Shown here: piece after piece, positions 43,585-60,200 of the stretch | Layout of the letters: each line of letters begins with the position of its first letter | Numbering within the stretch: position 1 is the stretch's first letter | Virus record (IMG/VR): IMGVR_UViG_3300029349_000001 | Span: 1 to 64,000 of that record | DNA from: a virus | Strand: one strand, 5' to 3' | DNA length: 64,000 nucleotides | The notes under the pieces: generated by a model | The model's database searches: none | The model's input: only the letters and a program-made list of their open reading frames with translations | Told to the model about the DNA's origin: nothing | Made by a program: the position numbers and the translations under genes

Positions 43585-46500
43585 ATGCCAATAACTATAA
43601 ATAAGCAATATCAATTTATTAAATTTTTAGGATCTTCTAATCTAAGTCTCAATAGTTTATCTGGTTCTATTACTAATCAAATTGCTATAATTTATGGTAT
43701 TTCCGCAGATGGTTCTTCATATTTATCATGGAGCAACAGTGCTTTTTCTAGTTTACAAAATCTAGAAACTTATAAGACATATCTAATTGTTAGCAATAGT
43801 GCAAATCCTAATTATACTCTATATTCAGGCAGTGAAGTAGTCGATGCGAGCACGAGTACAGAGATTACTACCACTAGATCAATGGAAACATATAGGGGCG
43901 CAACACCTCTGACACTAAGTAGTGCTAGTTTTAAAAATAATATTTTGTTGATATATGGTATTTCTAGTGATGGCTTAGGTTTCGTATCTTATAGTCCATC
44001 GTCTCAATTTAATAGTTTAACAACACTACAACCAGATGTTGGATATGAGTTTGTTACCAACGGCACTCCTTTTACACTGTGGTTGGCTCCTGGAGCATCT
44101 CCCACCCCAACGCCAACCCTCACAGCAACACCAACACTAACGCCGACCAATACCCCAACAAGAACTCTTACCCCAACACCTACTTTAACAGCAACTGTTA
44201 CTGCCACACCAACGCTCACACCATCATTAACGCAAACCAATACGCCCACACGCACACTCACTCCTACTCCTACGCTTTCTCCCACTCCAACGAGTAGTCC
44301 TCTATTAAGTCCTAATTTTGCTAATTATAATAATCAATCTATTTTTAAAGGACTAGCTAATAGTAGTACTGTTGGTACTAACGGAGCAAAAAGCTCGTAT
44401 GGTTGCCATGACATGAGTGGAAATGTTTCGGAGTGGGTTGGTCAAGCCACCGATGTTTGTTTAAGAGGCGGTAATTTTTCGTCTTCTTCAAATGATATTT
44501 CAAAATACGGTAGATTAGTAGTAGCCGCTACCGTATCTGATCCAGCCACGGGCTTTAGAATTGCTACGTCTGGCACAAATGGCGACCACCTATCACTAGG
44601 TAATTTCATTACTATTGGAAATACTAATAACGTATCTGATCCTGATACGAGTTATGGCGCTGTGGCATATTCTTATCGCATATCTAAATTTCAGGTTACC
44701 AATGATGAATATTGTGCTTTCTTAAATAGTCAAGCAAAATTAGATACAAAAGCATTATATAATTCTTTAATGAGTAACGATGCGGAAAGAGGAGGTATAT
44801 TGAGAGGTGGATCACCAGGATCCTATTACTATGTAAGCAAAATGCATCATGGTAATAAACCAGTTAATTATGTTAATTGGATAGATTGTGCCAGATACTG
44901 TAATTGGATACATAATGGAGCAACAGACACTAGCGATACAGAAAATGGAGCATATACCATCAATCCGTTGGGAGCTGTGGCAAGAAACACAGGCGCTAAA
45001 TACTGGATACCTCTAGAAAATGAATGGTATAAGGCAGCTTTCTATGATCCAGCCTCTACCAGTTACTATTTATATAGCACACAAAATAATAGCACACCAA
45101 CAGCAGCATCTCTTAACACTAATGGAGATGGGCCATTTTCTCCATCTTCAGCTTTTGATGATGGACAAATACTTATTGCTGATACAACCAAGATGGTGGT
45201 ACTAGATACTAATAATCCTAGTAGTAATATTGTAAATATATCAGATATTAATACCACTCCACATAGTCTAACAGTTGGTCCGTTTAGAGATGATGCTTTT
45301 ATCTCTAATTCCGCCGGTCTTATAGATGTGGTGAGCCTAACTGCACAAAATCCTAGTGGCTGGGCCAAGGTTTTATCTTTAGCGGCTGGATCTGACGCTA
45401 GAAAAATATTAGTTAGTTCTGACGGATCAAGATTATATTGTTTAAATTATAATGATAGAACTATTACCGTATATGACCTACTCGGATCCCCTAGGTATGC
45501 TACAAGACTCATTATGGATTATCGCGGTTCGGGCATAGTATACGACTTTTGCAATGGAGAAAATGCAGACACAATCTATGTAGCCTGCTCTAACGGATAT
45601 GTAGTCAGAACCACTATTACTGGATCTTCTTATAATAATAATATTTATTATTACTATCATGGTTTTATTAACCAGCCAGTATCAATGACTTTCTTACAAA
45701 ATCAAATATATGTAGCCTTGGTTGATGGTGCTACTACTATTAAAACCCGCAATATAAATAATGGCGCAGAAGCGACTATTAGTATTGTTGGATTAAGTAA
45801 TTTTGGACAGGCTTCTACAGTGACTGTTGTTAGATTGGCTTTATACAATGATCCTTATAACAAATATTTAGTTTTGACAGGAGAAATATCTAATCTTAAT
45901 AGAGGAGTTATATATTATTATAATCCCCTATATAACAGACAAATGTCTATCAGTTATACCGATACTGTATCAACAATCGGTATTTATACCAATATTGCAC
46001 AAAATAAAGACTATGCATATTTATTTGCCGGTAATAGATTGCTAACTTTTGATTCAACTAATAAATATTTTAGAACCTCGGTCGTTGTATCTCCCACTTT
46101 CAATAGTTCTATTATTAGAGATGTTGAGTTTAGAAGCAATACCGCGATACCAGCACCGTCTCCTTCTCCAACACCAACTAATACTACTACTCCAACCAGA
46201 ACACCCACTAATACGCCAACAGTCACCCCAACCAACACTGTTACCCCTACATTCACTTCTACCCCAACACCAACTCCAACACAAGAACCTCCTGTAGTAT
46301 ATTCTAACTCTATGGTGGCGGCTGTGGGTGCTAACGATGTGGGCCAATTAGGAGACGGCACTTATGGTTCATCCAAGGTCTTTAAGCATATAACTGCCCC
46401 ATCAGGAAATGTATTTAATTATAATGTAAGAGCTAGTTCTTTAGGTAGTCATAATCTCATTATTGATTCCAGCAATAGACTTTGGGGATGGGGTAATAAC

Positions 46501-47388
46501 GATAGGGGTCAAGTTGGTCCGTCAGCATGGACTAGTGTGGCTCCTTCTGGTAGTGGTTTGAATACCAATCCTTCTACTATGGCATATGATACAGTTAGTA
46601 ATAGGTATGCTATATTTGGTCTTTCAAGTAATGTTGTTAATGTTTCGACTAATGGTACCGTTTGGACAAGTGCAACTATCGGAACAGCTCCTCCATCTTT
46701 AAATTGGACAACATCTATCGGATGGAATAACAATACTTCCACAGGTGGAGGATCTCCACAAACTAATCAATACTCTATCTTTGCATTAGCTAATAACTCC
46801 AATATTCTTGCAGCATATAGCAATTCAAATAATACCTGGGTATCACCCAGCTTGTCTGTTACAAGAAATTGGACCGCTATGGTACAATCAAGAAATAAGA
46901 TTTTAGCTTTTGCTAGCAATAGCAACAATGTATTTACTATAGTTCCCGGAGCAAATAATACTATTACAACATCTGACGTAAGCCTAGGCTTAGGGTCTTT
47001 AAATGTGTTCTGGAAAACTGCGGCTGTTAATAGTAATGGCTCTACTATACTAGCAATTGGGTACGATTCAAGAACCATTGTTCGTAGTACTGATAGTGGC
47101 GCTTCTTGGTCGCAGGCTGGTGTTTCTTTACCTTTAGTTGCCAAATGGGAGAAGATTATTTGTTCTAACAACAGATGGATCTTAATCGCTTCTGATCAGG
47201 ATAGTGTATATACTAGTGATGATAATGGATCTAATTGGACAGCTCGCTCAACCAGCAGCACCAACCCGTCTTGGACTCAAATATCAGTCTATAATAATAC
47301 CATTATTTTAGTTGGATTAAATAATAACTATTACTTAACAAGTACTGATAATGGCACATCTTGGAAAAAACGATTCTTAGGCGTATAA
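43585..47388 (+). CDS. Multidomain appendage protein: permuted FGE-sulfatase-like domain, beta-propeller, two RCC1 blades, BNR/Asp-box propeller
   Basis: DMSGNVSEW, GFRIA, ENEWYKAA; GANDVGQLG, GNNDRGQVG; SxDxGxxW boxes. Confidence 0.8.
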   Translation: MPITINKQYQFIKFLGSSNLSLNSLSGSITNQIAIIYGISADGSSYLSWSNSAFSSLQNLETYKTYLIVSNSANPNYTLYSGSEVVDASTSTEITTTRSMETYRGATPLTLSSASFKNNILLIYGISSDGLGFVSYSPSSQFNSLTTLQPDVGYEFVTNGTPFTLWLAPGASPTPTPTLTATPTLTPTNTPTRTLTPTPTLTATVTATPTLTPSLTQTNTPTRTLTPTPTLSPTPTSSPLLSPNFANYNNQSIFKGLANSSTVGTNGAKSSYGCHDMSGNVSEWVGQATDVCLRGGNFSSSSNDISKYGRLVVAATVSDPATGFRIATSGTNGDHLSLGNFITIGNTNNVSDPDTSYGAVAYSYRISKFQVTNDEYCAFLNSQAKLDTKALYNSLMSNDAERGGILRGGSPGSYYYVSKMHHGNKPVNYVNWIDCARYCNWIHNGATDTSDTENGAYTINPLGAVARNTGAKYWIPLENEWYKAAFYDPASTSYYLYSTQNNSTPTAASLNTNGDGPFSPSSAFDDGQILIADTTKMVVLDTNNPSSNIVNISDINTTPHSLTVGPFRDDAFISNSAGLIDVVSLTAQNPSGWAKVLSLAAGSDARKILVSSDGSRLYCLNYNDRTITVYDLLGSPRYATRLIMDYRGSGIVYDFCNGENADTIYVACSNGYVVRTTITGSSYNNNIYYYYHGFINQPVSMTFLQNQIYVALVDGATTIKTRNINNGAEATISIVGLSNFGQASTVTVVRLALYNDPYNKYLVLTGEISNLNRGVIYYYNPLYNRQMSISYTDTVSTIGIYTNIAQNKDYAYLFAGNRLLTFDSTNKYFRTSVVVSPTFNSSIIRDVEFRSNTAIPAPSPSPTPTNTTTPTRTPTNTPTVTPTNTVTPTFTSTPTPTPTQEPPVVYSNSMVAAVGANDVGQLGDGTYGSSKVFKHITAPSGNVFNYNVRASSLGSHNLIIDSSNRLWGWGNNDRGQVGPSAWTSVAPSGSGLNTNPSTMAYDTVSNRYAIFGLSSNVVNVSTNGTVWTSATIGTAPPSLNWTTSIGWNNNTSTGGGSPQTNQYSIFALANNSNILAAYSNSNNTWVSPSLSVTRNWTAMVQSRNKILAFASNSNNVFTIVPGANNTITTSDVSLGLGSLNVFWKTAAVNSNGSTILAIGYDSRTIVRSTDSGASWSQAGVSLPLVAKWEKIICSNNRWILIASDQDSVYTSDDNGSNWTARSTSSTNPSWTQISVYNNTIILVGLNNNYYLTSTDNGTSWKKRFLGV

Positions 47389-47394
47389 TATAAG
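47380..47394 (+). promoter_or_regulatory. Candidate late promoter (GGCGTA variant)
   Basis: 35 bp before ATG 47415; overlaps the last codons of 43585. Confidence 0.4.
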
Positions 47395-47414
47395 TATAAT
47401 ATCAAGGATACATT

Positions 47415-50400
47415 ATGGCTAATTTTAGAAATCTTATCACAGGAAATGGTATACTTCTAGGACTGTCTGATGATAATCAGATGTATGTTTTAGGGGATAA
47501 TGCTAATAAAAATACAGTATCCAGAATCGGTAATGATGGTCCACTATACGCCGCCGGATGGAAATCAGCATCGGTTAACGCCAAGCATTCCGCAGCTATT
47601 ACCAATAATGGACAACTATATGTATGGGGAGACAACTCCTATGGTCAATTAGGCATAGGAGGATCAGTAGCGTCTTCTATGGATCCTATATTATTAGATA
47701 ATAGTGAATGGCTTAGTGTAAGTTGTGGAGCAAGACATACCGTAGGTATTAAAAAAGATGGATCTTTATGGGGTTGGGGATCTAATCAATTTGGTCAATT
47801 AGGACCAAACGCAGCAACTATACAATATGTACCTTATAGAATATCCGAGCCTTCTTTTAGCAACGTGGCCTTATTGTTGCACCTTAATGGTTTTGCTGGA
47901 TCAACTACGATTTCTGATAGTTCTTTATTATCTAAAAATGTTAAGATTATAGGATCTGGGAGACTATCTTCTACTCAGTCTAGGTTTGGAGGTATATCTT
48001 ATTATTATGGAGATACTGGCAGCAGTGGTATAGATGCCAACGGCTCATATGATGATCTAAAATTTGGTACTGGTGACTTTACAATAGAGGGATACTACTA
48101 CTTAAATAGTAATAGTAGCGACAACTTCTTATATGATACAAGACATCCCTGGAATGCATCAGGAGGATCTTACGCATATGTTACTAGTACTGGCGTACTT
48201 AATGTAGAAGGTCAGACCACTATTATTATGCCAACCAATCGTTGGGTTCATGTGGCTTTTAGTAGACAAAACGGTATATTAAGAACATTTTTTGATGGAG
48301 TATTAGTATATACTCAATCTTCAACCACTAACTACGATTCGGGATACTGCTATATTGGTGCTGCTGCTTACTATCCTGCTGGTGCCGCACCCTTCAGAGG
48401 TTACATAGACGAGGTAAGGGTTACTAAGGGAATTGCTAGATACGTATCAACCTTTACGGCTCCCACAATACCCTTTATGGACTCTAGCGATTCTTATTTA
48501 AAAATTGCTGCTGGTTCCTTCTTTAATTTAGCTATTAAAGCAGATAACACTCTTTGGAGTTGGGGCGATAATTCGTATGGACAATTAGGCACATCTTCTA
48601 CTGTCGCATCTAGACCAACACTTACACAAATTGGTACAGATAATAATTGGGTTGATATAGTATGTGGAGATAGTCATGCTCTAGCAGTTAAGTCCGATGG
48701 CTCTTTATATTCCTGGGGATATAATGCTTTGGGTCAGTGTGGTGTTGGTACTTCTAATGAGAGTTATAATAGTCCTATAGCTGTAACCGGGGTTCACGAT
48801 GGAGCTACTTATCGTCCAATTTTAGGCATTACTTTAGATAATGAAAAAAGAATAGCTTGTGGAAAAAATCACAGCTTTATTATCGCAAGAACAGCACTAG
48901 GAGATAATATCCTATTCGGCACTGGAGATAATAGCAACGCCCAATTAGGCACAGGAAACAATGATTCTAAAACAGTATTTACTGCCGTTGATCTTAGTAG
49001 AAGATTCATCTCTACAGATGCTGGTGTGAATCATAGTTTAGGCAAACTAGACTTACCAGAAAATCAACCAACTCCTAGTCCAACTCCCACACTAACTCCA
49101 ACACCAACAGTTACCGCAACCAATACTCCAACTGTAACACCAACTAGAACCGCTACGCCAACACTAACGGCCACTCCATCTGCAACCCCGGTTGGACCAC
49201 CACCTTCTCCGTCCCCAACTGCTACAGTATCACCCACTCCTTCTTTACCAGCTAGGGCAGGCTTTAATTGGTTTCCTATCAATATTGTTTCCAGAGCTTT
49301 TAATAGTGTAGTATACGGCGCTAAGCTCGATAGATTTATTGCTATGCCGAGAAATGGCAATATTCCAGCCATATCAGAAAATAGTACTGCCACAAGTTGG
49401 ATTGACACAAACTCCTTGCCTTCTAATATGGCTCTGCCAGAAGTTATAGATGCTAGACACTACTTGTTTTCATATGATCCTTCTTCGAGTCCAAGAGCTA
49501 ATGGTAACACGATAGCAATCTCTAAAAATGGGTTCGACTGGATTAACAATACTGTAGTAAGAACAGACTCTAATAGTTATAGTATAGTAAGCGCATCGTC
49601 TTATACTAGTTTGTCTAGTGTTGATGGACACATTGTTGCTGTGGGACCAGTTGCTAATAGTGGTAACAGAACAGCTCTTAGATATAAAAAAATTACAGTT
49701 AAGGATACTGATAATATTTCAGCCAGTATGATCCCAGAGCGAGACTTTGCTCCATTCTTAGATGCAAATAATCGTCCGATCTTAACGATAAATACAGCTA
49801 ATTATAATAATCATGTGGGCAGCGTAACAGATGTAAGATATAATGGTGGTTCTAGCGCATATGGCGCTTTCGATATGACAGGCAACGTAGATGAATGGAC
49901 AGGAACATCTGGTACCGGAGGAACATCATTCTTTACTTTGGGAGGAAACTATACTGCTAGTAATCCATCCAAAGATAATGTGACTACAACACAATCTTCG
50001 TCGTCTTCTATAGGGACAAGAGGTTTTAGACTTGCTAGTGTAACAAATCCAACTAATAATTATAGCACATTTGTGTCTGTTGGAGATATCAACAATGATT
50101 CGGATAACGGTGTGGGTTCTGTTACTTCTAATTATCGTATTGGTACATATCCTGTGACAAATTTGGAATATGTTGAATTTTTAAATGCTGTTCAGCCCAC
50201 CGGCAGCATTAGTGAATTACACAATATTCCCTCCTTAGCTGATAAAGACGTAGGAATTAAATTACCATATACGATATCTAATACTATAGAGAGTAATTCA
50301 ATCTACTCATATGGCATAGCGATTAATCCTAATACCAATAGAGCATATGTATGTAAATACTATGACAGTAGTTTACAAGTTATAGATCTTAATACTTCTA

Positions 50401-52571
50401 CGATTATAGCAACTATTAATGTTGGTAGTCAACCATGGGATGTTATATGTGATCCAGCCAACAATAGAATTTATGTTTCTGTATCCGGCGGCGCAAGAAT
50501 TAGAGTGATTGACGGAACTAATAATACTATTATAGGTAATATTACAACACAGAGTTTTCCACGCTATATGGCATTAGATAGTGCCAACAATAAATTGTAT
50601 GTGTCATTTTCTACGAATAGTTTTAGTGTGATTGATGTTACAACCATTACGACTAATATGTTGGTACAAACAACTTCTTCTGTCATCGGTACTCCATTAG
50701 GTATGGCCGTAGATTCCACTAACAATAGACTATATATTGGGTATTCTGATTCCACAGGGGCGTATATTAGGGTTGTGAATGCTTCTAATATTAATACGAT
50801 TATATCAACCATTTCTTTACAAAGCAATACGTATCCTTTTGATCTAAAGCTGAATAGCGATAGAAGTAGACTTATTGTAGCCGAAAGCAATAGCAAGTCA
50901 TTAACTATTATTAATACTACAACTAATTCTATTATTGCTAGAATACCATTATCAACTACTACAATAGCTGGCTTCTCACTAGATGCACAAAACAAGGCCT
51001 ATATTGCAGGATATGGGGACAATAGTTTAATAATAGTAGATACCAATACCTCAGCTTTGGTTGGAAAGGTTGTATTATCTAATACTAATATTAATCCACA
51101 AGACGTGGCCATTGCTAATAATAAAATATATATAGTTAATTGGGGCGATAGTAAGGTATTTACTGTAGAAGTATCTAATACCTATACGACTATACCAGGA
51201 ATGGAATATAAACCAGTATCTTATATAAATTGGTATAATGCTGCTCGTTATTCTAATTGGTTGTCAAACGGAAAACCTGTTGGAGTACAGTCCTCAACAA
51301 CAACAGAAAATGGCGCATATCAGCTCAATGGAAATACTGGAAATCCCACACTAAATACAACTAATCCCAATACAGGATCTGCTCCGGCTTATTATCTACC
51401 TTCTAGAAATCAATGGTATAAAGCAGCATACTATAAGGGTGGTAATACCAATGCTGGATATTGGCTATACGGAAACTCATCAGATACATTATCTCCAGCA
51501 TATTTATTCGGCAATAGTCTAGAGAATCTACCAGCCGCCAGTAGTGTTGTCAAAGTTAGAAAAGACGGACTAGTGGTGGTTGCTGGACAAGGATTCGTGT
51601 TGATGTCTAACATGGTTCCAAATACTGTACCAAACTGGAATTATTATCCTCTTACACAACTAACTGAACCTACAGACATATTATTTGGGGATAATAACAG
51701 AATCGTTATTCTACAAAGCACACTCGGAGTCGTATCTGCTAATAATAGATACTATTATAGTGACGCTGTAAATTACTCCAATAGTTATCCTTCTGTTAGT
51801 TGGACAATAGGAAATCTGCCCGCGACAACCCTAACTACATCTGTTGGAGCATCCGCTTATGACAATGGTGTGTTTGTGGTCATACCTCTTTCTGCTTCAT
51901 TATCTTCGTCTTCTTTTGTTTCTTCTGATGGTATTAATTGGAATACTATTTCTTCTAGTGTGCTATCTAATAAGATATGGAGAGGCTTAGCTAGTAAGAG
52001 TAATCTATTTGTAGCGGTTGGAGACAATTCACCACTAGCTGCTATTAGCTATAGTGATATCAGAACCACACCAACCCCCACAGCAACGCCCACAGTTACT
52101 CCATCAAATCTAGGTATCGTAATTACACAACAACCGAAAAATGTTGATATAGTTCTCGTGGCAGATAATAATGCTGGAGGTGTCGCGGTCTTTAATGTTA
52201 CCGCTAGTTCTAGATCTCCAATTGCATATCAGTGGTATGAGTCTGTTAGTAATGGGCCGTTTACCGCTATTCCAAATGCTACGCTCAATAGTTTATCTAT
52301 CAATAATATTACTAGTAGTAAGCATGGTAATAGATATTATGTTAAATTAACATCTGGTACTATTGTAGTAGATAGTAGTATCGCAACCCTAAATGTATTC
52401 ACAAATTCACCCATTACTATTCTACAACAACCTAGTAATACCACTGCGGTTAGTGCTGCGGCATCTTTTACCGTATTGGCCACTATCAACTATCCTTCAC
52501 CAACCCCTACAATAACAGCTACTAGTACTCCAACGCCGACCCCAACAGTTACCCCTTCTAGGTCTGTATGA
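47415..52571 (+). CDS. Multidomain appendage protein: five RCC1 blades, LamG, permuted FGE-like domain, YVTN-like propeller, Ig-like domain
   Basis: WGDNSYGQLG repeats; GYIDEVRVTKG; DMTGNVDEW; NRIYV/IATINVGSQP repeats; QQP...YQW. Confidence 0.8.
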   Translation: MANFRNLITGNGILLGLSDDNQMYVLGDNANKNTVSRIGNDGPLYAAGWKSASVNAKHSAAITNNGQLYVWGDNSYGQLGIGGSVASSMDPILLDNSEWLSVSCGARHTVGIKKDGSLWGWGSNQFGQLGPNAATIQYVPYRISEPSFSNVALLLHLNGFAGSTTISDSSLLSKNVKIIGSGRLSSTQSRFGGISYYYGDTGSSGIDANGSYDDLKFGTGDFTIEGYYYLNSNSSDNFLYDTRHPWNASGGSYAYVTSTGVLNVEGQTTIIMPTNRWVHVAFSRQNGILRTFFDGVLVYTQSSTTNYDSGYCYIGAAAYYPAGAAPFRGYIDEVRVTKGIARYVSTFTAPTIPFMDSSDSYLKIAAGSFFNLAIKADNTLWSWGDNSYGQLGTSSTVASRPTLTQIGTDNNWVDIVCGDSHALAVKSDGSLYSWGYNALGQCGVGTSNESYNSPIAVTGVHDGATYRPILGITLDNEKRIACGKNHSFIIARTALGDNILFGTGDNSNAQLGTGNNDSKTVFTAVDLSRRFISTDAGVNHSLGKLDLPENQPTPSPTPTLTPTPTVTATNTPTVTPTRTATPTLTATPSATPVGPPPSPSPTATVSPTPSLPARAGFNWFPINIVSRAFNSVVYGAKLDRFIAMPRNGNIPAISENSTATSWIDTNSLPSNMALPEVIDARHYLFSYDPSSSPRANGNTIAISKNGFDWINNTVVRTDSNSYSIVSASSYTSLSSVDGHIVAVGPVANSGNRTALRYKKITVKDTDNISASMIPERDFAPFLDANNRPILTINTANYNNHVGSVTDVRYNGGSSAYGAFDMTGNVDEWTGTSGTGGTSFFTLGGNYTASNPSKDNVTTTQSSSSSIGTRGFRLASVTNPTNNYSTFVSVGDINNDSDNGVGSVTSNYRIGTYPVTNLEYVEFLNAVQPTGSISELHNIPSLADKDVGIKLPYTISNTIESNSIYSYGIAINPNTNRAYVCKYYDSSLQVIDLNTSTIIATINVGSQPWDVICDPANNRIYVSVSGGARIRVIDGTNNTIIGNITTQSFPRYMALDSANNKLYVSFSTNSFSVIDVTTITTNMLVQTTSSVIGTPLGMAVDSTNNRLYIGYSDSTGAYIRVVNASNINTIISTISLQSNTYPFDLKLNSDRSRLIVAESNSKSLTIINTTTNSIIARIPLSTTTIAGFSLDAQNKAYIAGYGDNSLIIVDTNTSALVGKVVLSNTNINPQDVAIANNKIYIVNWGDSKVFTVEVSNTYTTIPGMEYKPVSYINWYNAARYSNWLSNGKPVGVQSSTTTENGAYQLNGNTGNPTLNTTNPNTGSAPAYYLPSRNQWYKAAYYKGGNTNAGYWLYGNSSDTLSPAYLFGNSLENLPAASSVVKVRKDGLVVVAGQGFVLMSNMVPNTVPNWNYYPLTQLTEPTDILFGDNNRIVILQSTLGVVSANNRYYYSDAVNYSNSYPSVSWTIGNLPATTLTTSVGASAYDNGVFVVIPLSASLSSSSFVSSDGINWNTISSSVLSNKIWRGLASKSNLFVAVGDNSPLAAISYSDIRTTPTPTATPTVTPSNLGIVITQQPKNVDIVLVADNNAGGVAVFNVTASSRSPIAYQWYESVSNGPFTAIPNATLNSLSINNITSSKHGNRYYVKLTSGTIVVDSSIATLNVFTNSPITILQQPSNTTAVSAAASFTVLATINYPSPTPTITATSTPTPTPTVTPSRSV

Positions 52572-52573
52572 AT

Positions 52574-52591
52574 GGTGTAATTACTAATATA
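52574..52591 (+). promoter_or_regulatory. Candidate late promoter (GGTGTA)
   Basis: 44 bp before ATG 52618. Confidence 0.55.
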
Positions 52592-52617
52592 ATTCATTTT
52601 AAATTAAAGGCTAAACT

Positions 52618-55600
52618 ATGGGATTAACATATCAATGGCAAGTATCAACAGATAATACAGCGACAGTATTCGTTGACTTGCAAGACGGTCCATTGGTATC
52701 TGGAACCAAGACTCAAACACTATTATTTAACAATCTAACAGTAGCTGATAATAATAAAAAATATCGCGTAATTATCGGTAGTACAGATTTTAATGTGGCT
52801 CCTGTTGTTAGTGATGCTGCTACTCTTTTCACAGCTCCCTCTATTACTTTAAGTACAATCCCAGATATAGCCACAACAGCGACAACAGCAACATTTTCTG
52901 TTAGCGGAGTAGCTAATACTGGTACTATTAGTTATCAATGGCAAAAAAGAGTACCTTGCGCCCCAACTGCTACAGAACCATGTTTTATTAATTTAGTAGA
53001 TCAAACAGGTTCCGTTAGCGGTGCTCTTACTCCAAATCTTATTTTAACTGGATTAACAGCTGCGGTACATAATAATTCTCAATACCGAGTTGTTGCCAGC
53101 GCACAGTGTTGTGGAACAACCGCCATTACACAATCATCAAATGTCGCAACACTACAAGTTGCCACACAAGGACAAACACTATTTATTACTAAAGACTTAA
53201 CAGATGCAATAATAGCAACAGACAAAACTGCTTCTTTTAATATAGAGATACAAACGACAACAACCAATTCGACACCGGTCCCAGTAACATTCGGATGGCA
53301 AAAATTAGTTGCTGGGAGTTGGGTAAATGTAACTAATAATCAACCGATACAAAGTTCAGTTATTAATCCTACATTATTGCTATACAAACAAACACTAGCT
53401 ATTACTAGTGCTATTGATAGCGAATCTTATAGAGTTGTGGTAAACGATGGAAGGTCATCCGCCACCAGCGCTACCGCAAAGAGTAAGAATCCCGCCACAT
53501 GTACTGATTGTGGAGGTAGTGGTACTGGAGATCCACACTTTTATATAGGCGGGAATTACGGCTTTGATGATAATCCGATTATTAACGGACACAAAGAAAT
53601 TGTAATGCTTTATATAAAAAACAAAAAAGACAATACCGAGCACGTATTAACTTGCAAAAATACTGGAGCTTTCGGCAAGTCTTCTCCATATAACGTAGAA
53701 AGAACTTCATATACACAATTTAAAGATGGTAAAATTGTTGGAGCCAGAGTAGACAACGGAAAAGCAGATATGATGGGTGTGGCAATGATGAACGCCGCTT
53801 CTGGACGTTTTGCTTTTACTTGGTCTGTTCTAAACCCCTCTAATATCCACAAAGCTCAAGACTTAGATATAGTTATTGGTGGTGCGTGGTATTGGATGTG
53901 CAAGTCCCTAATTCAATATCTAAAAAAGAATCCGTCTTTCATGAGTTTAGGATGGCCATATATTGGTTGGATTCATGCTGATGGCATCGGTTTGGGATTG
54001 GCTCCATATAATCTTATCAGAGAGAATTTTGAAATAGATAATTTATATCTTAAAAATAGTGGAAGTGCGAATATTGACGGTCTTTATATAGCTTCTAGCA
54101 AAGATGATAAGAATAGTACTAGATACAATAAAGACAATAGTGCATATTCCATAATTAGAGATCGCGGACTATGGCAAATCAAAACCAGGGTTCTGTCTCC
54201 TATCGCAATGACTAAAATTTCTGATACGCAATTTAGCATCAGCACATCTCGCTATATAGATGCAGAAAGTCTAAGTGTTGGCCTTGGGGTTGGTAGTAGT
54301 GCGGCTGGCGTTGTTGCTGGAAATCCTATCATATCATCTATCTCGTATAAATATCCTGCTCAAGCTATGGCGAGAGAAGATGTAGCGCCTATCACTGCTG
54401 AAATCACCGTAAGTGGTGGGCAGATTCTACAAAGCGGCTCCGTTATTTTTGGATATTTTGTAGACACCACAAACACTAGTAATAGTATTACACTACCTAA
54501 TCTCTTTACAGCTTCAGATATATATATTGGTCAAAAAATTACTATTAGCGGAGCTACATCTGCTAATACTACAATTACTAATATTAACGGGAATATATTA
54601 ACACTAAGTAGTAATTGTACTGCTACTGGTAGGTTCCCACTAGAAATTATTTATGCTGAATCTTTTGAAGACAATACTACTTCTCCAGATTTATCTGGGG
54701 GATGGTTAAAAAATAAAAATATTATTCCAGACATTAAATTATTACCATTATTATCTAGTCCAGAAGGCATATCTAAAATTGCAGAAGATATCACCGCCAA
54801 TCCTCGTTTTTGGCATGAGTTGTCTTTGGCTCTATCGGGCAAGCCTCTAGACGGAACTCCAGTAAATAGTATAGTAGCACAACCCAAAGATACTATCTCT
54901 GTCAATGGAATAGCGTCTTTTACTGTGGTTGCTGAATTGGCCAGTTCCAAATATCAGTGGCAAAAATCCACAGACAACGGAGTGTCTTGGATAGATATAG
55001 CTGGAGCTACTAATGCTACACTTGTAGTTAATGCTATTAAATCTGATAACGGATCGTTGTTCAGAGTAAAAGTTGACACTGTTCTTACCAGTAGTAGTGC
55101 TAAGTTATCTGTTCCATCTACTCTTAGAGTCCAACAAGAACCATCAAATACTAGTGCTATTAATCTACAGGCCGTATTCGGTGTTGTTGCTAGCGGAGTA
55201 CAGCCGATTACATATCAGTGGCAAAAATCCGACGATAATGGCGCAACATTCTCTAATGTGCCAAACAACAATCTACCTACCCTTACCTTGAGTAATCTTA
55301 AAGCTGAAGATGATAATGATCTATATAAAGTTTCTGTGGCCGACGGAGCCGGAGATTCCTATACATCAGCCGCTTATAAGCTCTTTATTAATCCAGTCTT
55401 AAGTATCACATCGCACCCGACTACACAAACAGCATCCGAGGAAGAAACAGCTACTTTTAGTGTTTCTGGCACTTGCAATAACGGGTTGTTTAAACACCAA
55501 TGGGAAGTATCTACCAATAATGGCGTATCATATGCGGCCGTTGGAGAACCTTCTTATTCTGGTAATTTAAATTTAAGTGGTCTCAAGATATATGATGATA

Positions 55601-57291
55601 ATAAGCTGTATAGAGTTAAGCTTATTTCTGATATAAAGAATAACTTTGTTTATTCTAGTGGTGCTAGATTATTGGTACCTAATAGTCTTACAATAGTTAC
55701 TCAGCCAGCAAATACTATATCTTCTAGCGGCAATGCAACATTTTCTGTTGGAGCAAACTCATCTCAGCCACCTCTAAGTTACCAGTGGCAGACACAAGCA
55801 CCACAGTCCAACAATTGGATAGACATAGTTTCTGGTACTGGGTCTACTTTAAATGTAACAGGACTAAGGCTCGTTGACGATAATACTAAATATAGAGTTA
55901 TATTAACAGATCAAAGAGGTTCTGTATATAGTCAACAGGCTATCGTAGACACGACACCCCAAATTTCTATCACTCAAAATATTGCTGGATATACTAGCAA
56001 TAATTATAAGCTTAACTTAACTGTTGTGGCATCTGTTTTGACCACAACACTAGAAAATACTTCTGGTAGTTTGGTATATAGTTGGGAAAAAGCAGATCCA
56101 GGATCCAATTTATTTGCCCCACTTACTGGTATTCCATCTAATCAAAATTACCTATTAGGAGATCTAAAGGTGGCAGATAGTGGAGTAAAGTATAGAGTAA
56201 AATTAAGCCTACCCGGCGCACGAGACCTATACTCCAATACTGCACAAATAGATGTGCCTCCATCAATAACTGTTAATGTCAAAACTCCATTTTTAGCAAA
56301 GACCAACTATCCCAATACGGATATTACTTTATCAATTGATGCGACAACTAAAGTTCCACCACTAAACTATCAATGGCAAAAAGCAAGCACCACAAGTAAT
56401 CTTATTAATTATCAATTCCCTAATAATGATCCTTTCTATGATAGAGTAGGACTATTTATGGAAATGAGTGGTGTTTCTGGCACGAGGGCTTTTGTGGATT
56501 CGACAGACAAAACATATATAATACCGTATAGAGATGATTCGGTATATAATCAATATGCAGATATTAAATTATCAAATTTAGATTTCAAGTCTGCTCCAAC
56601 TAGTGCTAGATTTAATGATATATACAGTCATCTTAGAGTTTTTGATAGTGGCAATAATTTGTATTTTGGTAACAAGAACTTTACTATAGAATATTGGTAC
56701 AAGCCAACTGAGTATTCTGAAATGAGTGTTGTATCTCGAAGAAAGGGTAATGTTTGGCCTGTTTACGGTAATGTGGGCTGGACTTTAAGTAGTACTCGTT
56801 TTAGAGCTAAAATAGGACAGACTTGGAGAGATGATTGGATTGATGATAATGGGAATTTATCTATTATACCAGTGAACGAATGGACACACGTAGCCTTAAC
56901 CCGCTATAATAATACATATCGTTTATTTAGAAATGGAGCTATGGTTGGCAGCTTCTTCAATAACGAGACTTTGGATGAAACATCTGGCCCTCTAGTAATT
57001 GGCACCTCAAGTTCGGTTCAAATTAATAGTACAGAGAATGGTTACAGTTTGGTGGGCTTTTTAGATAATCTAAGAATTACTGTTGGATTGGCTAGATATA
57101 CACAGAACTTTGTTCCAGATACATTAATAGATACAGACTATCAAGTAACCATAGCCAATAATAATTTTACTAATATTCCCAACGCAACAGGAACTACGCT
57201 AAAATTAGAAGGATTAACAAGCAATAATAATCTAGAACAATATAGGGTTGTTCTAACCGATCCTGTTTCGACTGTTATAGTAGAGAATTAA
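52618..57291 (+). CDS. Multi-Ig-domain appendage protein with a GDPH (VWD-like) domain and LamG
   Basis: Repeated YQWQ.S.D.G...YRV Ig units; GTGDPHF; GFLDNLRITVG. Confidence 0.8.
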   Translation: MGLTYQWQVSTDNTATVFVDLQDGPLVSGTKTQTLLFNNLTVADNNKKYRVIIGSTDFNVAPVVSDAATLFTAPSITLSTIPDIATTATTATFSVSGVANTGTISYQWQKRVPCAPTATEPCFINLVDQTGSVSGALTPNLILTGLTAAVHNNSQYRVVASAQCCGTTAITQSSNVATLQVATQGQTLFITKDLTDAIIATDKTASFNIEIQTTTTNSTPVPVTFGWQKLVAGSWVNVTNNQPIQSSVINPTLLLYKQTLAITSAIDSESYRVVVNDGRSSATSATAKSKNPATCTDCGGSGTGDPHFYIGGNYGFDDNPIINGHKEIVMLYIKNKKDNTEHVLTCKNTGAFGKSSPYNVERTSYTQFKDGKIVGARVDNGKADMMGVAMMNAASGRFAFTWSVLNPSNIHKAQDLDIVIGGAWYWMCKSLIQYLKKNPSFMSLGWPYIGWIHADGIGLGLAPYNLIRENFEIDNLYLKNSGSANIDGLYIASSKDDKNSTRYNKDNSAYSIIRDRGLWQIKTRVLSPIAMTKISDTQFSISTSRYIDAESLSVGLGVGSSAAGVVAGNPIISSISYKYPAQAMAREDVAPITAEITVSGGQILQSGSVIFGYFVDTTNTSNSITLPNLFTASDIYIGQKITISGATSANTTITNINGNILTLSSNCTATGRFPLEIIYAESFEDNTTSPDLSGGWLKNKNIIPDIKLLPLLSSPEGISKIAEDITANPRFWHELSLALSGKPLDGTPVNSIVAQPKDTISVNGIASFTVVAELASSKYQWQKSTDNGVSWIDIAGATNATLVVNAIKSDNGSLFRVKVDTVLTSSSAKLSVPSTLRVQQEPSNTSAINLQAVFGVVASGVQPITYQWQKSDDNGATFSNVPNNNLPTLTLSNLKAEDDNDLYKVSVADGAGDSYTSAAYKLFINPVLSITSHPTTQTASEEETATFSVSGTCNNGLFKHQWEVSTNNGVSYAAVGEPSYSGNLNLSGLKIYDDNKLYRVKLISDIKNNFVYSSGARLLVPNSLTIVTQPANTISSSGNATFSVGANSSQPPLSYQWQTQAPQSNNWIDIVSGTGSTLNVTGLRLVDDNTKYRVILTDQRGSVYSQQAIVDTTPQISITQNIAGYTSNNYKLNLTVVASVLTTTLENTSGSLVYSWEKADPGSNLFAPLTGIPSNQNYLLGDLKVADSGVKYRVKLSLPGARDLYSNTAQIDVPPSITVNVKTPFLAKTNYPNTDITLSIDATTKVPPLNYQWQKASTTSNLINYQFPNNDPFYDRVGLFMEMSGVSGTRAFVDSTDKTYIIPYRDDSVYNQYADIKLSNLDFKSAPTSARFNDIYSHLRVFDSGNNLYFGNKNFTIEYWYKPTEYSEMSVVSRRKGNVWPVYGNVGWTLSSTRFRAKIGQTWRDDWIDDNGNLSIIPVNEWTHVALTRYNNTYRLFRNGAMVGSFFNNETLDETSGPLVIGTSSSVQINSTENGYSLVGFLDNLRITVGLARYTQNFVPDTLIDTDYQVTIANNNFTNIPNATGTTLKLEGLTSNNNLEQYRVVLTDPVSTVIVEN

Positions 57292-57295
57292 TCAC

Positions 57296-60200
57296 ATGAC
57301 ACAAATTTATACATCTAATACTGTTTTAGTCAAAGCAAAAGCGCCTATTGTTAATTTTTCTGAAGGCGACTCCGCGACATTAGTAGCTGATATTAGTATT
57401 ATATGGATCAACCCAAGCTCGGCACAAAGGTTTTTGACTCATAAATGGCAAGAGTCCAATGACGGAGGAGTAACCTGGAGAGATATTAGCTCAGGTATTG
57501 CGGACCATCCACTATCAACAAATAATATAGCTCCAACCAAAACCGTATCTTTGCTCGATAATCAACTTGCAGATCTAGAATTATCAGAGTTTAATATTGC
57601 CAAAACTAAGCCAATAGTAGCTTCTCTCACCATCGATAACGTACTATTAAGTCAAGATAATTATTTATACAGATGCATAGTGTTGTTATATAACAATGAT
57701 ATTAATACAATTGAGAGTGCTGGTACTAGTGAAAATATTTTCCTCAATATTTCAGAGAAAAAAACAGGTCATTTATTACCTAATTTTGATATTCCTTGGG
57801 ATCCTATGAATCCTCGTGGAGTAATCAAATCTGGAAATCTTAAGTTTGATCAAAACACTAAGATAGAGTTATTTAAGCTTACAAAAGATGCTTGTGGTTC
57901 TCAGTGGAGAATTATAGAGGTAGGCTATGGAACTCAGTATATCAACGGCAATATCACTAATGGTATGCCAGTAGGCTTACCCAAAACTTATGGCCCCAAC
58001 GATCAAACATATCCGGGCTATATGGAATTACAGTTTTATTGTAATAATAGTTGGGTAACACAGGAATCTTGGATATCTTTAGTGGGCAATGATGAACACG
58101 TATTTGAAAAATATGGACCAATATCTCCAGTAACCGTATCTATCAACGGAGAAGCTTTAGTTAGTCAAACATCTTTAGGTACGAAAGATAATCCTTTAGT
58201 TATTAAACCAACACCCGGTGCAACAGGAGGTTCGTCTCTAGATGTTACTGGTGTTTCAGATAATAGCACCGTATCTGTATCATGGAATGGAACAGCCCTA
58301 GGGTATAGTAACACATTAGGTATCCAACAAGCTGGAACACAAACCATAACCGTACCATCATCCTTCGTTCTGCCTGTACAAGTTACTATTACAGGAGGAT
58401 GTGATGATGACTTGGTAGTTAATGGTCAGGTTATTAATCAGAATAATTTAGCTGATAATGTTAACTATACTTTTACTTGTGAGACCAGAACATTTACTGT
58501 AAGTGTTTACAATGCTATGGCTGGCGGTACTGCTTATGACTATAATATTTCTTTTGCTGGGACTCAAAGCGCTAATAGTGCTGTTTCCGCTATTAGGTCT
58601 GACACTACTAATATTTTAACAATATCACAAGCTTCAGAAACTAAAAATGTAAGTGTTAATAGCAATAATAATAATTGGACCGAGGCTGGTATTAATGTAC
58701 AAGAAGGATCTAGACTGTTTATATCTGCTACTGGCAGCATACAGTGGTCTACTAATAATTTTAGCAGTCCTTCTGGTGTTGGTTCTGGTAATGCTGTTTT
58801 ATATAGCGGCATTCCCCAATCAGCTTTAGTTGGAAGAATAGGAACAACTGGAACGCCATTTTATATAGGAGATTACTATAATAGCTTTGCTAATGGTAGT
58901 GGTCCTCTATTCTTGTCTGTCAATGATAGTAATAAGAATGATAATTCTGGATCATATGCGTCTATCATAAAATATGCAACACCAGATCCTTTGGGCATTA
59001 AAGTTACAACATTGAATTCTGAGCCTTATGATTCTACCATTCAAGACCTAGATTTTTCCAAGGTGAGCTTATTATTAAAATCCGATAATGACTCATTAAA
59101 TGATGTTTCGGCCAAGCCAAAATCTTTTACTAGTACCAACGTTAGTTTTAGTAGTCAGATAAATACTTTTGGTGGTTATTCTGCATACTATGGAGACAGT
59201 GGATATTCTGTAGCTAATTCCGATAGTTCTCTAGGATTCTCTGGTGATTTTACTATTGAAGGATGGTTTTATTTCTCTAAGAATAATGTTGGATACCAGG
59301 GTTTAGTTTCCACATATAGAACCGGAGACATTAGTGGATGGATATTGGTTTTAGAGAGTAATAACACTTTAAGATTTTACGCTACTAATGCTAATATTAC
59401 TTGGTATTGGCCCCTATCTATATCTTCTAATTATACTCCGCCAACAGAGAAATGGACATATATTGTTGTACAAAGACTTGGTTCCTCTGTGAAGATGTTT
59501 GCTGATGGAGTAGAAGTTGGATCAACTTCTAATAATCTGGATATAACAAGCGGCTCCAAGATAGAAGTAGGCGGTTATCAATACTTTCCGGGTGGACGTA
59601 GATCATTACAAGGATATGTTGACGAAGTTAGAATTACTAAAGGATTGGCCAGATATCCACAGAGCAACCCGCCACTACCAAACAAACCCTTTCCGAAACG
59701 ATCATATAGTGCTACACAAATAATAGATATCTCTGGTAGTCAGAAATCAGCCACTCCAGTATACGATAGTAACGGAAATTTTCTTTACTACGAATTTAAC
59801 TCCAAGAATAGTTACATAGGTCCGTACAACGAGCCTGGACAGCTTAGTTTGGTTTATGGGTATGTTTCTGGCTCTCCGATAGTCGCACAGACACCGGCAG
59901 AAGGATATTTCCAAGCTTTTGATGGCAGTGATAGATATTTCAGAAAACTTGGGGTTTATGATTTAGATTGCTGTTATATGGGTGGCTACACACCAGATGA
60001 CGGATACTATATATTATCCAGGAGAGCTGACGGTCAGTATGTAGTATCAGAAAGCGTTAGATGGTATGCTGCTAATGGATATGCTGTTGGAACCATAGTG
60101 CCATATCCTCCTCAAATTAATCAAGTAGGAGATAATGGACATCCTAATAATAGCGCATCATGGAGATCGTGGAGTTGGAGTAATTCGTGCTGTAATAATG

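What the first reader, a model, noticed from the sequence alone, without database searches (positions are those of the whole stretch)
52413..52830. Ig domain split between the end of one gene and the start of the next
Seen: 47415 ends with only Ig strands A-B (ITILQQPSNTTAVSAAASFTVLATIN) plus a PT tail. 52618 starts at strand C (MGLTYQWQVSTD...LTVADNNKKYRVII...SDAATLF). Together they match the intact Ig units in the same genes. The ORFs are in different frames with a 46-bp gap containing a GGTGTA motif and an RBS. Inference: strand complementation, analogous to pilus donor-strand exchange, chains the subunits head to tail into one ~6000-aa appendage (43585-47415-52618-57296).
Basis: partly seen in the sequence, partly recalled or inferred. 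Interest (0 to 1): 0.85.

Follow-up and report, generated by a model that had tools for sequence, protein, structure and literature searches.

The report
Split Ig domain joining phage fibre proteins
Two neighbouring giant fibre genes of an uncultured jumbo phage each encode part of one immunoglobulin-like domain, and the cut sits at the same loop in every relative examined. The two proteins therefore most likely clip together by rebuilding that domain, a joint solved once before in a small dairy phage and only predicted here.

Summary
Gene 47415-52571 ends with Ig strands A-B (52413-52490) and a 26-residue Pro/Thr tail. Gene 52618-57291 starts at strand C. A profile of the window's own Ig units matches the two pieces at positions 1-21 and 23-66.

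This is not an artefact, a pseudogene or a recoding site:
- All 19 full-length orthologues of the downstream protein (36-98% identity) start M-x-x-x-Y-Q/K-W-Q.
- All 14 upstream proteins examined keep the A-B hairpin and a Pro/Thr linker.
- Gaps (3-58 nt) and frames vary.
- Both halves are under strong purifying selection (dN/dS 0.03-0.07).

In some lineages the linker carries about 440-480 further residues (two LamG domains, or a BNR propeller) before the stop. The joint may therefore also be a branch point.

A natural in-frame read-through construct folds as a complete I-set Ig (pLDDT 88.6). This fold leans on homology, because intact paralogues were in the alignment. The two-chain prediction gave only weak support (0.57 against 0.00 for controls).

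The "chain of four" is not established. The GGTGTA motif is a general promoter-like intergenic motif of this phage.

Closest solved precedent: the Tuc2009 BppU hairpin completing a BppA Ig-like domain. Notes from this scan report similar split-Ig fibre joints in at least eight other phage genomes.

The parts
47415..52571 (+). Upstream giant fibre gene (P0001, 1718 aa). It holds an RCC1 propeller with a LamG insert, an FGE-sulfatase-like domain, a YVTN-type propeller, one intact Ig, then the Ig A-B hairpin and a Pro/Thr tail.
   Evidence: ORF list, translation, Pfam
52146..52400 (+). Last intact Ig unit of P0001 (about residues 1578-1662), directly before the hairpin.
   Evidence: HMM hit at profile 9-70, residues 1588-1651
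52413..52490 (+). Ig strands A and B (residues 1667-1692, ITILQQP...FTVLATIN): the donated hairpin.
   Evidence: HMM positions 1-21. Conserved in 14 upstream proteins. dN/dS 0.05 against L001.
52491..52571 (+). Pro/Thr tail of 26 residues plus the TGA stop. It is the stump of a linker that carries about 440-480 more residues in some relatives.
   Evidence: Translation. Mostly synonymous differences from L001 and dN/dS 0.07. Extensions seen in L042, L044, L046, L047 and P0128.
52572..52617 (+). 46-nt spacer with the promoter-like motif GGTGTAATT (52574-52582) and the RBS-like AAAGG (52606-52610, 7 nt before ATG).
   Evidence: Sequence. 43/46 identical in L001. The motif recurs in intergenic regions.
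52618..52842 (+). N-terminal part of the Ig domain, strands C to G (P0002 residues 1-75, starting MGLTYQWQ): the acceptor.
   Evidence: HMM positions 23-66. The start is conserved in 19 orthologues. dN/dS 0.03, lower than the next Ig unit.
52618..57291 (+). Downstream giant fibre gene (P0002, 1557 aa). It holds the part Ig, about nine further Ig units, a roughly 440-aa non-Ig region and a LamG domain nested in the last Ig.
56323..57267 (+). Last Ig of P0002 with a LamG domain inserted after strand C. This shows that these Ig units tolerate large loop insertions within one chain.
   Evidence: HMM 12-35 at residues 1236-1261 and 32-70 at 1513-1550. Laminin_G_3 at 1348-1487.
57270..57340 (+). Next junction (stop at 57289-57291, ATG at 57296). 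The termini ...VSTVIVEN and MTQIYTSNT... are conserved. A role as a joint is unresolved.

Best explanation
The two genes make separate polypeptides that assemble by rebuilding one I-set-type Ig domain from two chains.

The upstream fibre protein contributes the A-B beta-hairpin, half of the A-B-E-D sheet. It then leaves the domain at the B-C loop through a flexible Pro/Thr linker. The downstream protein begins exactly at strand C and contributes strands C to G.

The completed domain continues the string of Ig beads across the protein boundary, so it acts as a non-covalent plug-and-socket joint between successive segments of a monomeric, adhesin-like virion fibre. In relatives the Pro/Thr linker goes on to a lectin-like domain (two LamG) or a BNR propeller. 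In those phages the joint is also a branch point. In this window only a 26-residue stump remains.

Shown:
- the exact complementarity of the two pieces;
- separate genes with their own RBS-like and promoter-like signals;
- conservation of the cut across the clade, and purifying selection on both halves.

Inferred:
- that the halves bind each other;
- the sheet topology, which rests on general knowledge of the Ig fold;
- that the proteins are virion fibre components, which rests on neighbouring tail-fibre and baseplate-like genes.
For: 1. Exact complementarity: HMM positions 1-21 at the end of P0001 and 23-66 at the start of P0002. The alignment with intact units agrees.

2. The cut is ancient and fixed.
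- All 19 full-length P0002 orthologues, 98% down to 36% identity over the first 500 residues, on contigs up to 230 kb from JGI, ENA, NCBI and Logan, start M-x-x-x-Y-Q/K-W-Q.
- In all nine loci read, the upstream protein has the A-B hairpin followed by a Pro/Thr linker. The same holds for further upstream orthologues P0126-P0129 and P0132.
- No orthologue has the domain intact in one chain. No fused orthologue appeared among proteins over 2725 aa, which is weak evidence.

3. Selection, window against L001: dN/dS is 0.05 for the hairpin, 0.07 for the tail and 0.03 for the C-G half, against 0.07-0.12 for the genes. In all three comparisons the C-G half has lower dN than the next intact Ig.

4. 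No recoding route.
- Spacers are 3, 31, 46, 46, 47, 50, 54, 56 and 58 nt, in all relative frames.
- About 440-480 extra residues lie before the stop in some lineages.
- There are stops in every frame.
- The spacer carries an RBS-like AAAGG and a promoter-like motif.

5. Folding. In L043 the two genes are in frame (TAA CAA ATG).
- The natural read-through sequence, with the stop read as Q, folds with mean pLDDT 88.6 and pTM 0.79. The hairpin scores about 96 and the Pro/Thr loop 61-68.
- The model matches I-set Ig domains over residues 1-131: Z 12.1, rmsd 2.4 A, 101 aligned (9gti_D); Z 11.9, rmsd 3.0 A, 102 aligned (phage N4 capsid protein, 9e99_J); Z 11.3, rmsd 2.1 A, 91 aligned (titin Ig21, 8p35_E).

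6. Two-chain prediction, verdict 'weak support'.
- Score 0.57, best of 3 controls 0.00.
- The mark was reached by 58 of 80 solved complexes and 2 of 110 mismatched pairs.
- A score of 0.60 or under was given by only 7 of those 80 solved complexes and by both mismatches that passed.
- The runs agree in at least 85% of contacts, and the partner's pLDDT is at least 78.

7. A solved precedent exists for the principle: Tuc2009 BppU residues 296-321 form a hairpin that completes a sheet of BppA domain 2, giving a titin-like composite domain (PMC4742702).
Against: - No experiment shows binding.
- The complex prediction is only a weak pass and gave no contacts.
- The read-through fold used an alignment that contained intact paralogous Ig units. 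It is therefore largely a homology statement, and it was made for L043, not for the window's own pair.
- Upstream partners were read in only 14 lineages. Paired depth is too small for a covariation test.
- Virion location of these proteins is inferred from gene neighbourhood only.
- The C-G half could in principle be completed by a hairpin from another protein or another copy.
Confidence: 0.7

Rival explanations
1. Relic of gene fission. An ancestral giant gene was cut inside an Ig domain. The two pieces are tolerated remnants, disordered or packed against neighbouring domains, and the proteins are held together, if at all, by other contacts.
For: Domain insertions and rearrangements are common in these genes. 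The two-chain prediction is only a weak pass.
Against: A useless 26-residue hairpin would not survive divergence to 36% identity with saturated synonymous sites. Yet it is present in all 14 upstream proteins, whatever follows it. It has dN/dS 0.05, and the C-G half has the lowest dN/dS measured, 0.03. An Ig sandwich lacking two strands of one sheet would expose its core (general knowledge of the fold).
Confidence: 0.12
2. The halves are completed in trans but not in the simple neighbour-to-neighbour way. For example, the hairpin might be swapped between copies in an oligomeric fibre, or the socket might accept hairpins from more than one protein.
For: Nothing tested here fixes the stoichiometry or the partner. 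Notes from this scan on other phages describe one plug serving several sockets (unchecked).
Against: In the loci read, the HMM found no other terminal part-Ig unit besides this pair. Hairpin and socket are always encoded by adjacent genes in the same order.
Confidence: 0.1
3. One polypeptide is made after all, by read-through, frameshifting or ribosome bypassing of the spacer.
For: In L043 the two genes are in frame with only TAA CAA between them. Ig-like domains are added to some phage structural proteins by programmed frameshifts (my recollection of Fraser et al. 2006, not checked here).
Against: In the window the frames differ, and every frame has stops between the halves. Spacer lengths and frames vary freely among relatives, and the stop comes after about 440-480 extra residues in several. 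The Pro/Thr tail is selected in its own frame up to the same stop. The downstream gene has its own RBS-like and promoter-like signals.
Confidence: 0.03
4. Assembly or sequencing artefact, or a recently broken pseudogene.
For: None found.
Against: The same cut is present in independent assemblies from JGI, ENA, NCBI and Logan across 36-98% identity. Both genes show dN/dS of 0.07-0.12.
Confidence: 0.01

Closest known systems
Lactococcus phage Tuc2009 baseplate tripod: BppU C-terminal hairpin with BppA domain 2 (Legrand et al. 2016, PMC4742702, read)
   Same: A two-strand beta-hairpin at the end of one virion protein completes a beta-sheet of an incomplete beta-sandwich in a second virion protein. 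The composite domain resembles a titin Ig domain. The joint attaches a carbohydrate-binding accessory module.
   Different: - In Tuc2009 the incomplete sandwich is the C-terminal domain of a small accessory protein. Here it is the N-terminal domain of a 1557-aa fibre protein, and the hairpin forms strands A-B of a recognisable repeat unit.
- No sequence relation was seen. A PDB profile search with the composite domain found phage Moo19 and N4 Ig-like capsid proteins, RemA and titin, but not Tuc2009.
- Here the donor chain can continue beyond the hairpin to a further domain.
- The present case is predicted, not solved.
Donor-strand complementation and exchange in chaperone-usher pili (Fim, Pap, Caf1, Saf); established knowledge, not re-read here
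   Same: An Ig-like fold that is incomplete in one polypeptide is completed by strands from the neighbouring subunit, giving a strong non-covalent link in a fibre.
   Different: - In pili one G strand is missing and is donated by the N-terminal extension of the next subunit. Assembly needs a periplasmic chaperone and an usher, and gives homopolymers.
- Here strands A-B are missing from the acceptor and come from near the C-terminus of the preceding protein.
- The joint is a single heterotypic one, and no chaperone or usher is evident.
Type V pili of Bacteroidia (FimA/Mfa1) assembled by protease-mediated strand exchange; established knowledge, not re-read here
   Same: Strand exchange between Ig-like or transthyretin-like pilin domains builds a fibre. 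The Ig units here resemble those of Bacteroidota surface proteins (names given by sources; RemA).
   Different: - Type V pilins are made complete, and a strand is removed by a protease before the neighbour's C-terminal strands insert.
- Here the domain is genetically split, and nothing indicates proteolysis.
Ig-like decoration domains of phage virions (T4 Hoc, PMC10385173, title and abstract seen; N4 and Moo19 capsid proteins)
   Same: The same I-set-like fold and a detectable sequence relation: 9d7z_J at E 4e-12 and 9e99_J at E 6e-6.
   Different: Those domains are complete within one chain and act as surface decoration, not as inter-protein joints.

Membership tests
Ig-like domain, I-set / Pfam Ig_3 type | Sequence match to the family profile | tested here: met
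   P0002 matches PF13927 Ig_3 at E 1.3e-9, 38.8 bits against a cut-off of 30. The composite-domain profile matches Ig-like capsid proteins of phages Moo19 and N4, and titin, in the PDB.
Ig-like domain, I-set / Pfam Ig_3 type | Seven-to-nine-strand beta-sandwich formed by the two halves together | tested here: met
   Prediction only. The L043 read-through model has pLDDT 88.6. It matches solved Ig domains across model residues 1-131 at Z 11-12, rmsd 2.0-3.3 A, 84-104 aligned residues. The alignment used contained intact paralogues.
Tuc2009 BppU-BppA type joint (hairpin completes a partner's Ig-like sandwich) | A beta-hairpin of one virion protein binds and completes a sheet of an incomplete sandwich in another | tested here: inconclusive
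   Two-chain prediction: 0.57 against a best control of 0.00, 'weak support', no contacts given. Comparative evidence is strong. No binding was measured.
Tuc2009 BppU-BppA type joint (hairpin completes a partner's Ig-like sandwich) | The composite domain is titin-like | tested here: met
   The model matches titin Ig21 (8p35_E) at Z 11.3, rmsd 2.1 A, 91 aligned residues. The paper reports Z 5.9 to titin 2NZI for the Tuc2009 composite.
Tuc2009 BppU-BppA type joint (hairpin completes a partner's Ig-like sandwich) | Sequence homology to BppU or BppA | tested here: inconclusive
   The PDB profile search with the composite domain listed six sequences, none from Tuc2009. A missing match does not exclude a distant relation.
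Chaperone-usher donor-strand complementation | The acceptor lacks the C-terminal G strand, and the donor is an N-terminal extension of the next subunit | tested here: not met
   The acceptor lacks strands A-B (HMM 23-66 at residues 3-53). The donor is HMM 1-21 near the C-terminus of the upstream protein.
Chaperone-usher donor-strand complementation | Dedicated periplasmic chaperone and outer-membrane usher genes | not tested
   No such Pfam or PHROG hit appeared among the window proteins scanned, but I did not search for them specifically.
Programmed recoding site (frameshift, read-through, bypass) | Conserved frame relation and spacing between the two reading frames | tested here: not met
   Spacers of 3-58 nt in all three relative frames. 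Stops in every frame in the window.

The most novel reading that the evidence does not exclude
The split Ig domain is a genetically encoded three-way connector. The upstream protein threads its A-B hairpin into the socket at the start of the next fibre protein. It then leaves through the Pro/Thr linker to display an exchangeable lectin or propeller head, so the fibre is extended and branched at the same node. The same 'part domain, inserted domain, stop, rest of the domain' layout at the RCC1 propeller of the preceding junction would mean that the whole ~6000-aa appendage is assembled by domain completion at gene boundaries.
Probability: 0.3. Interest if true: 0.75.

Novelty: new variant of a known kind. 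Interest (0 to 1): 0.6.

Why it matters
If the joint is real, it explains how very large phages build long modular adhesin fibres from several giant genes without covalent links. It also shows where receptor-binding modules can be exchanged or lost, since the same node carries nothing, two LamG domains or a BNR propeller in close relatives.

It would extend a principle solved once, in Tuc2009, to a different strand topology and to a whole clade of jumbo phages.

It also offers a natural two-strand/five-strand split Ig pair that could be tested as a protein-ligation or tagging module.

For annotation, part domains at gene ends in phage fibre clusters should not be called pseudogenes or frameshift errors.

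Tried and rejected
- DNA search of GenBank phages with 51500-53500 found nothing. No whole genome is held for the window.
- Simple frameshift or bypass: rejected after translating all frames and comparing spacers. GTA-to-GTA hopping from the last sense codon lands in a frame that stops before the ATG, as read.
- MAFFT alignments meant to give the read-through construct an MSA misplaced the hairpin fragments three times (A4, A5 and five rows of A8). They were discarded. A7 and A9 were checked by eye before use.
- Search for fused orthologues among proteins over 2725 aa: only generic poly-Ig proteins at 33% identity or less and 60% coverage or less. This is weak evidence for absence.
- Search of 1.84 billion representatives with the half domain: dominated by internal units of poly-Ig proteins, and uninformative on other clades with the same cut.
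- Scan of 40 unrelated viral loci for part-Ig units at ORF ends: none found.
- Junction 57291/57296 as a donated G strand: the read-through model of L001 did not place MTQIYTSNT in the preceding Ig, and it is low-confidence there. Unresolved.
- Junction 47388/47415: Pfam coordinates on RCC1 repeats are ambiguous. The signature counts are suggestive only.
- Literature searches for a described split Ig joint in phage fibres found none beyond Tuc2009.
Full report
**Setting**

The window is a one-strand block of very large genes with about 37% G+C. PHROG matches to tail-fibre and baseplate or virion proteins lie in neighbouring genes. Orthologues lie on viral or metagenomic contigs of up to 230 kb. 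This is therefore the structural module of an uncultured jumbo phage.

Four consecutive genes encode bead-on-a-string proteins: 43585-47388 (P0003), 47415-52571 (P0001), 52618-57291 (P0002) and 57296-61654 (P0004). They are made of RCC1, LamG, FGE-sulfatase-like, propeller and Ig-like domains, several nested inside each other.

**The observation**

P0001 ends with ITILQQP...FTVLATIN (residues 1667-1692, bases 52413-52490), then 26 Pro/Thr-rich residues and TGA. After 46 nt, P0002 starts MGLTYQWQ.

I built a 72-position HMM from the window's own Ig units. It matches the end of P0001 at positions 1-21 and the start of P0002 at positions 23-66. Aligned with intact units of the same proteins, the two pieces join without loss or overlap. 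Only the Pro/Thr tail, the stop and the spacer are extra. No reading frame connects them.

**Is the cut real and meaningful?**

- A relative with about 90% protein identity (L001) has the same stop and the same 46-nt spacer (43/46 identical). Its Pro/Thr tail differs mostly at third codon positions.
- A protein search gave a graded series of P0002 orthologues from 98% to 36% identity. All 19 full-length ones begin M-x-x-x-Y-Q/K-W-Q.
- I fetched the DNA around seven of them. In every case the upstream protein contains an intact Ig, then an A-B hairpin, then a Pro/Thr linker. Further upstream orthologues show the same.
- Spacers are 3-58 nt in all relative frames, which excludes a conserved recoding device.
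- Against L001, dN/dS is 0.05 for the hairpin, 0.07 for the tail and 0.03 for the C-G half, with 0.07-0.12 for the genes as wholes. In all three comparisons the C-G half has lower dN than the next intact Ig.
- As controls, none of 41 Ig-bearing ORFs in 40 unrelated viral loci starts or ends inside a unit. No fused orthologue was found among longer proteins, which is weak evidence.

**An unexpected feature**

In L042, L046 and L047 the Pro/Thr linker after the hairpin leads to about 460 further residues. In L042 these are two LamG domains by Pfam; L046 and L047 have the same length and the same opening motif. In L044 a roughly 130-residue Pro/Thr linker leads to a BNR/Asp-box propeller. In P0128 the hairpin is followed by 439 residues with no Pfam match. 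Only then comes the stop, and the next gene still begins at strand C.

So the 'tail' in this window is the stump of a linker. The layout is that of a nested domain insertion in the B-C loop whose return path has been replaced by a chain break. The last Ig of P0002 shows the unbroken version, a LamG domain inserted after strand C within one chain.

**Structure predictions**

In L043 the two genes happen to be in frame (TAA CAA ATG). The natural read-through sequence, with the stop read as Q, gave these results:
- It folded with mean pLDDT 88.6 and pTM 0.79, the hairpin at about 96 and the Pro/Thr loop at 61-68.
- The model matches I-set Ig domains over its whole length: Z 12.1, rmsd 2.4 A, 101 aligned for 9gti_D; Z 11.9 for the phage N4 capsid protein 9e99_J; Z 11.3 for titin Ig21.
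- The alignment contained intact paralogues, so this shows compatibility rather than independent proof.

The two-chain prediction for the window's own termini, with alignments A2 and A3, gave 0.57 against 0.00 for the best of three controls. The tool's verdict was 'weak support':
- The mark was reached by 58 of 80 solved complexes and 2 of 110 mismatched pairs.
- Scores of 0.60 or under came from only 7 of those 80 solved complexes and from both mismatches that passed.
- The runs agree in at least 85% of contacts, and the partner's pLDDT is at least 78.

**Mechanism proposed**

There are two polypeptides. The upstream one supplies strands A and B, half of the A-B-E-D sheet by the standard Ig topology. 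The downstream one supplies strands C to G. The rebuilt domain continues the Ig string across the boundary and forms a non-covalent joint. Where the linker carries a domain, the joint is also a branch point. I put this at about 0.7.

**The spacer**

GGTGTA is not part of the joint. GTGTAWW occurs 12 times on the + strand, 8 of them in the 1618 nt of intergenic DNA and 7 of those 34-52 nt before a start codon. It also recurs after the stop in several relatives. It looks like a promoter element of this phage. AAAGG lies 7 nt before the ATG, matching the RBS-like motif before other genes.

**The other junctions**

- 57291/57296. All orthologues end ...YRV.LTD.VS..IVE.., and the next gene always starts MT(Q/K)IYT(S/A/I)NT, with tight or overlapping stop and start. 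This conservation is striking. However, the read-through model of L001 uses P0002's own last strand, and the junction has pLDDT 50-61. Unresolved.
- 47388/47415. P0003 has two RCC1 signatures, then a BNR-like propeller and the stop. P0001 starts with RCC1 blades. The same holds in L044 and L045. It does not hold in L042, L046 and L047, whose upstream gene is of another type. Suggestive only.

The four-protein chain is therefore not established.

**Comparison with known systems**

The nearest solved case is phage Tuc2009. There the last 25 residues of BppU form a hairpin that completes a sheet of BppA domain 2, giving a titin-like composite (PMC4742702). I found that paper through notes of this scan and read it myself.

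Pilus donor-strand complementation shares the principle but not the strands, polarity, chaperone or polymerisation. I found no paper describing a split Ig joint in phage fibres beyond Tuc2009.

Notes of this scan report similar split-Ig joints in at least eight other phage genomes. Those notes are unchecked by me and are not used as evidence.

**Verdict**

This is a real, conserved, selected split of an Ig domain between adjacent fibre genes. It is most likely a plug-and-socket joint. It is a new variant of a known kind and is predicted, not demonstrated.

Noticed in passing
window 9543, 14420, 18261, 35034, 37774, 52575, 62649, 63462 (+ strand): Recurrent intergenic motif (G)GTGTAWW, often followed by TATA-like bases. 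Eight of the 12 + strand copies of GTGTAWW lie in the 2.5% of the window that is intergenic, mostly 34-52 nt before a start codon. It is probably a promoter element of this phage. Similar motifs follow the stop in relatives L042, L045, L047 and L048.
   Followed up: partly
window 56323-57267: A LamG domain is nested inside the last Ig unit of P0002, after strand C. The two Ig parts match HMM positions 12-35 and 32-70.
   Followed up: partly
window 57270-57340; L001, L042-L048 equivalents: Every P0002 orthologue ends ...VS(T/S).IVE.. and every next gene begins MT(Q/K)IYT(S/A/I)NT, although the rest of the next protein varies widely (LamG, FGE-sulfatase or PA-IL types). Stop and start are 1-4 nt apart or overlap. 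This may be a second joint; the AlphaFold2 read-through model was inconclusive.
   Followed up: partly
window 46312-47800: P0003 carries exactly two RCC1 signatures, then a BNR-like propeller and the stop. P0001 opens with further RCC1 blades (four to five signatures, interrupted by a LamG). This is the same 'part domain, inserted domain, stop, rest of domain' layout as at the Ig joint in L044. It is seen in the window, L044 and L045 but not in L042, L046 or L047.
   Followed up: partly
window about 53500-53545: The motif CTDCGGSGTGDPHF (GDPH) sits at the start of the roughly 440-residue non-Ig region of P0002. GDPH is the Asp-Pro self-cleavage motif of VWD-type domains (general knowledge). 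Not tested.
   Followed up: no
L042 8561-9943; L044 8800-9966; P0128 1360-1769: The domain hung on the Pro/Thr linker after the hairpin differs between close lineages: two LamG domains, a BNR/Sortilin-like propeller, an unassigned 410 residues, or nothing. This suggests module exchange or loss at this node.
   Followed up: partly
L043 854-862: In the most distant relative the two genes are in frame and separated only by TAA CAA. This allowed a natural read-through construct. Whether any read-through occurs there is unknown.
   Followed up: no
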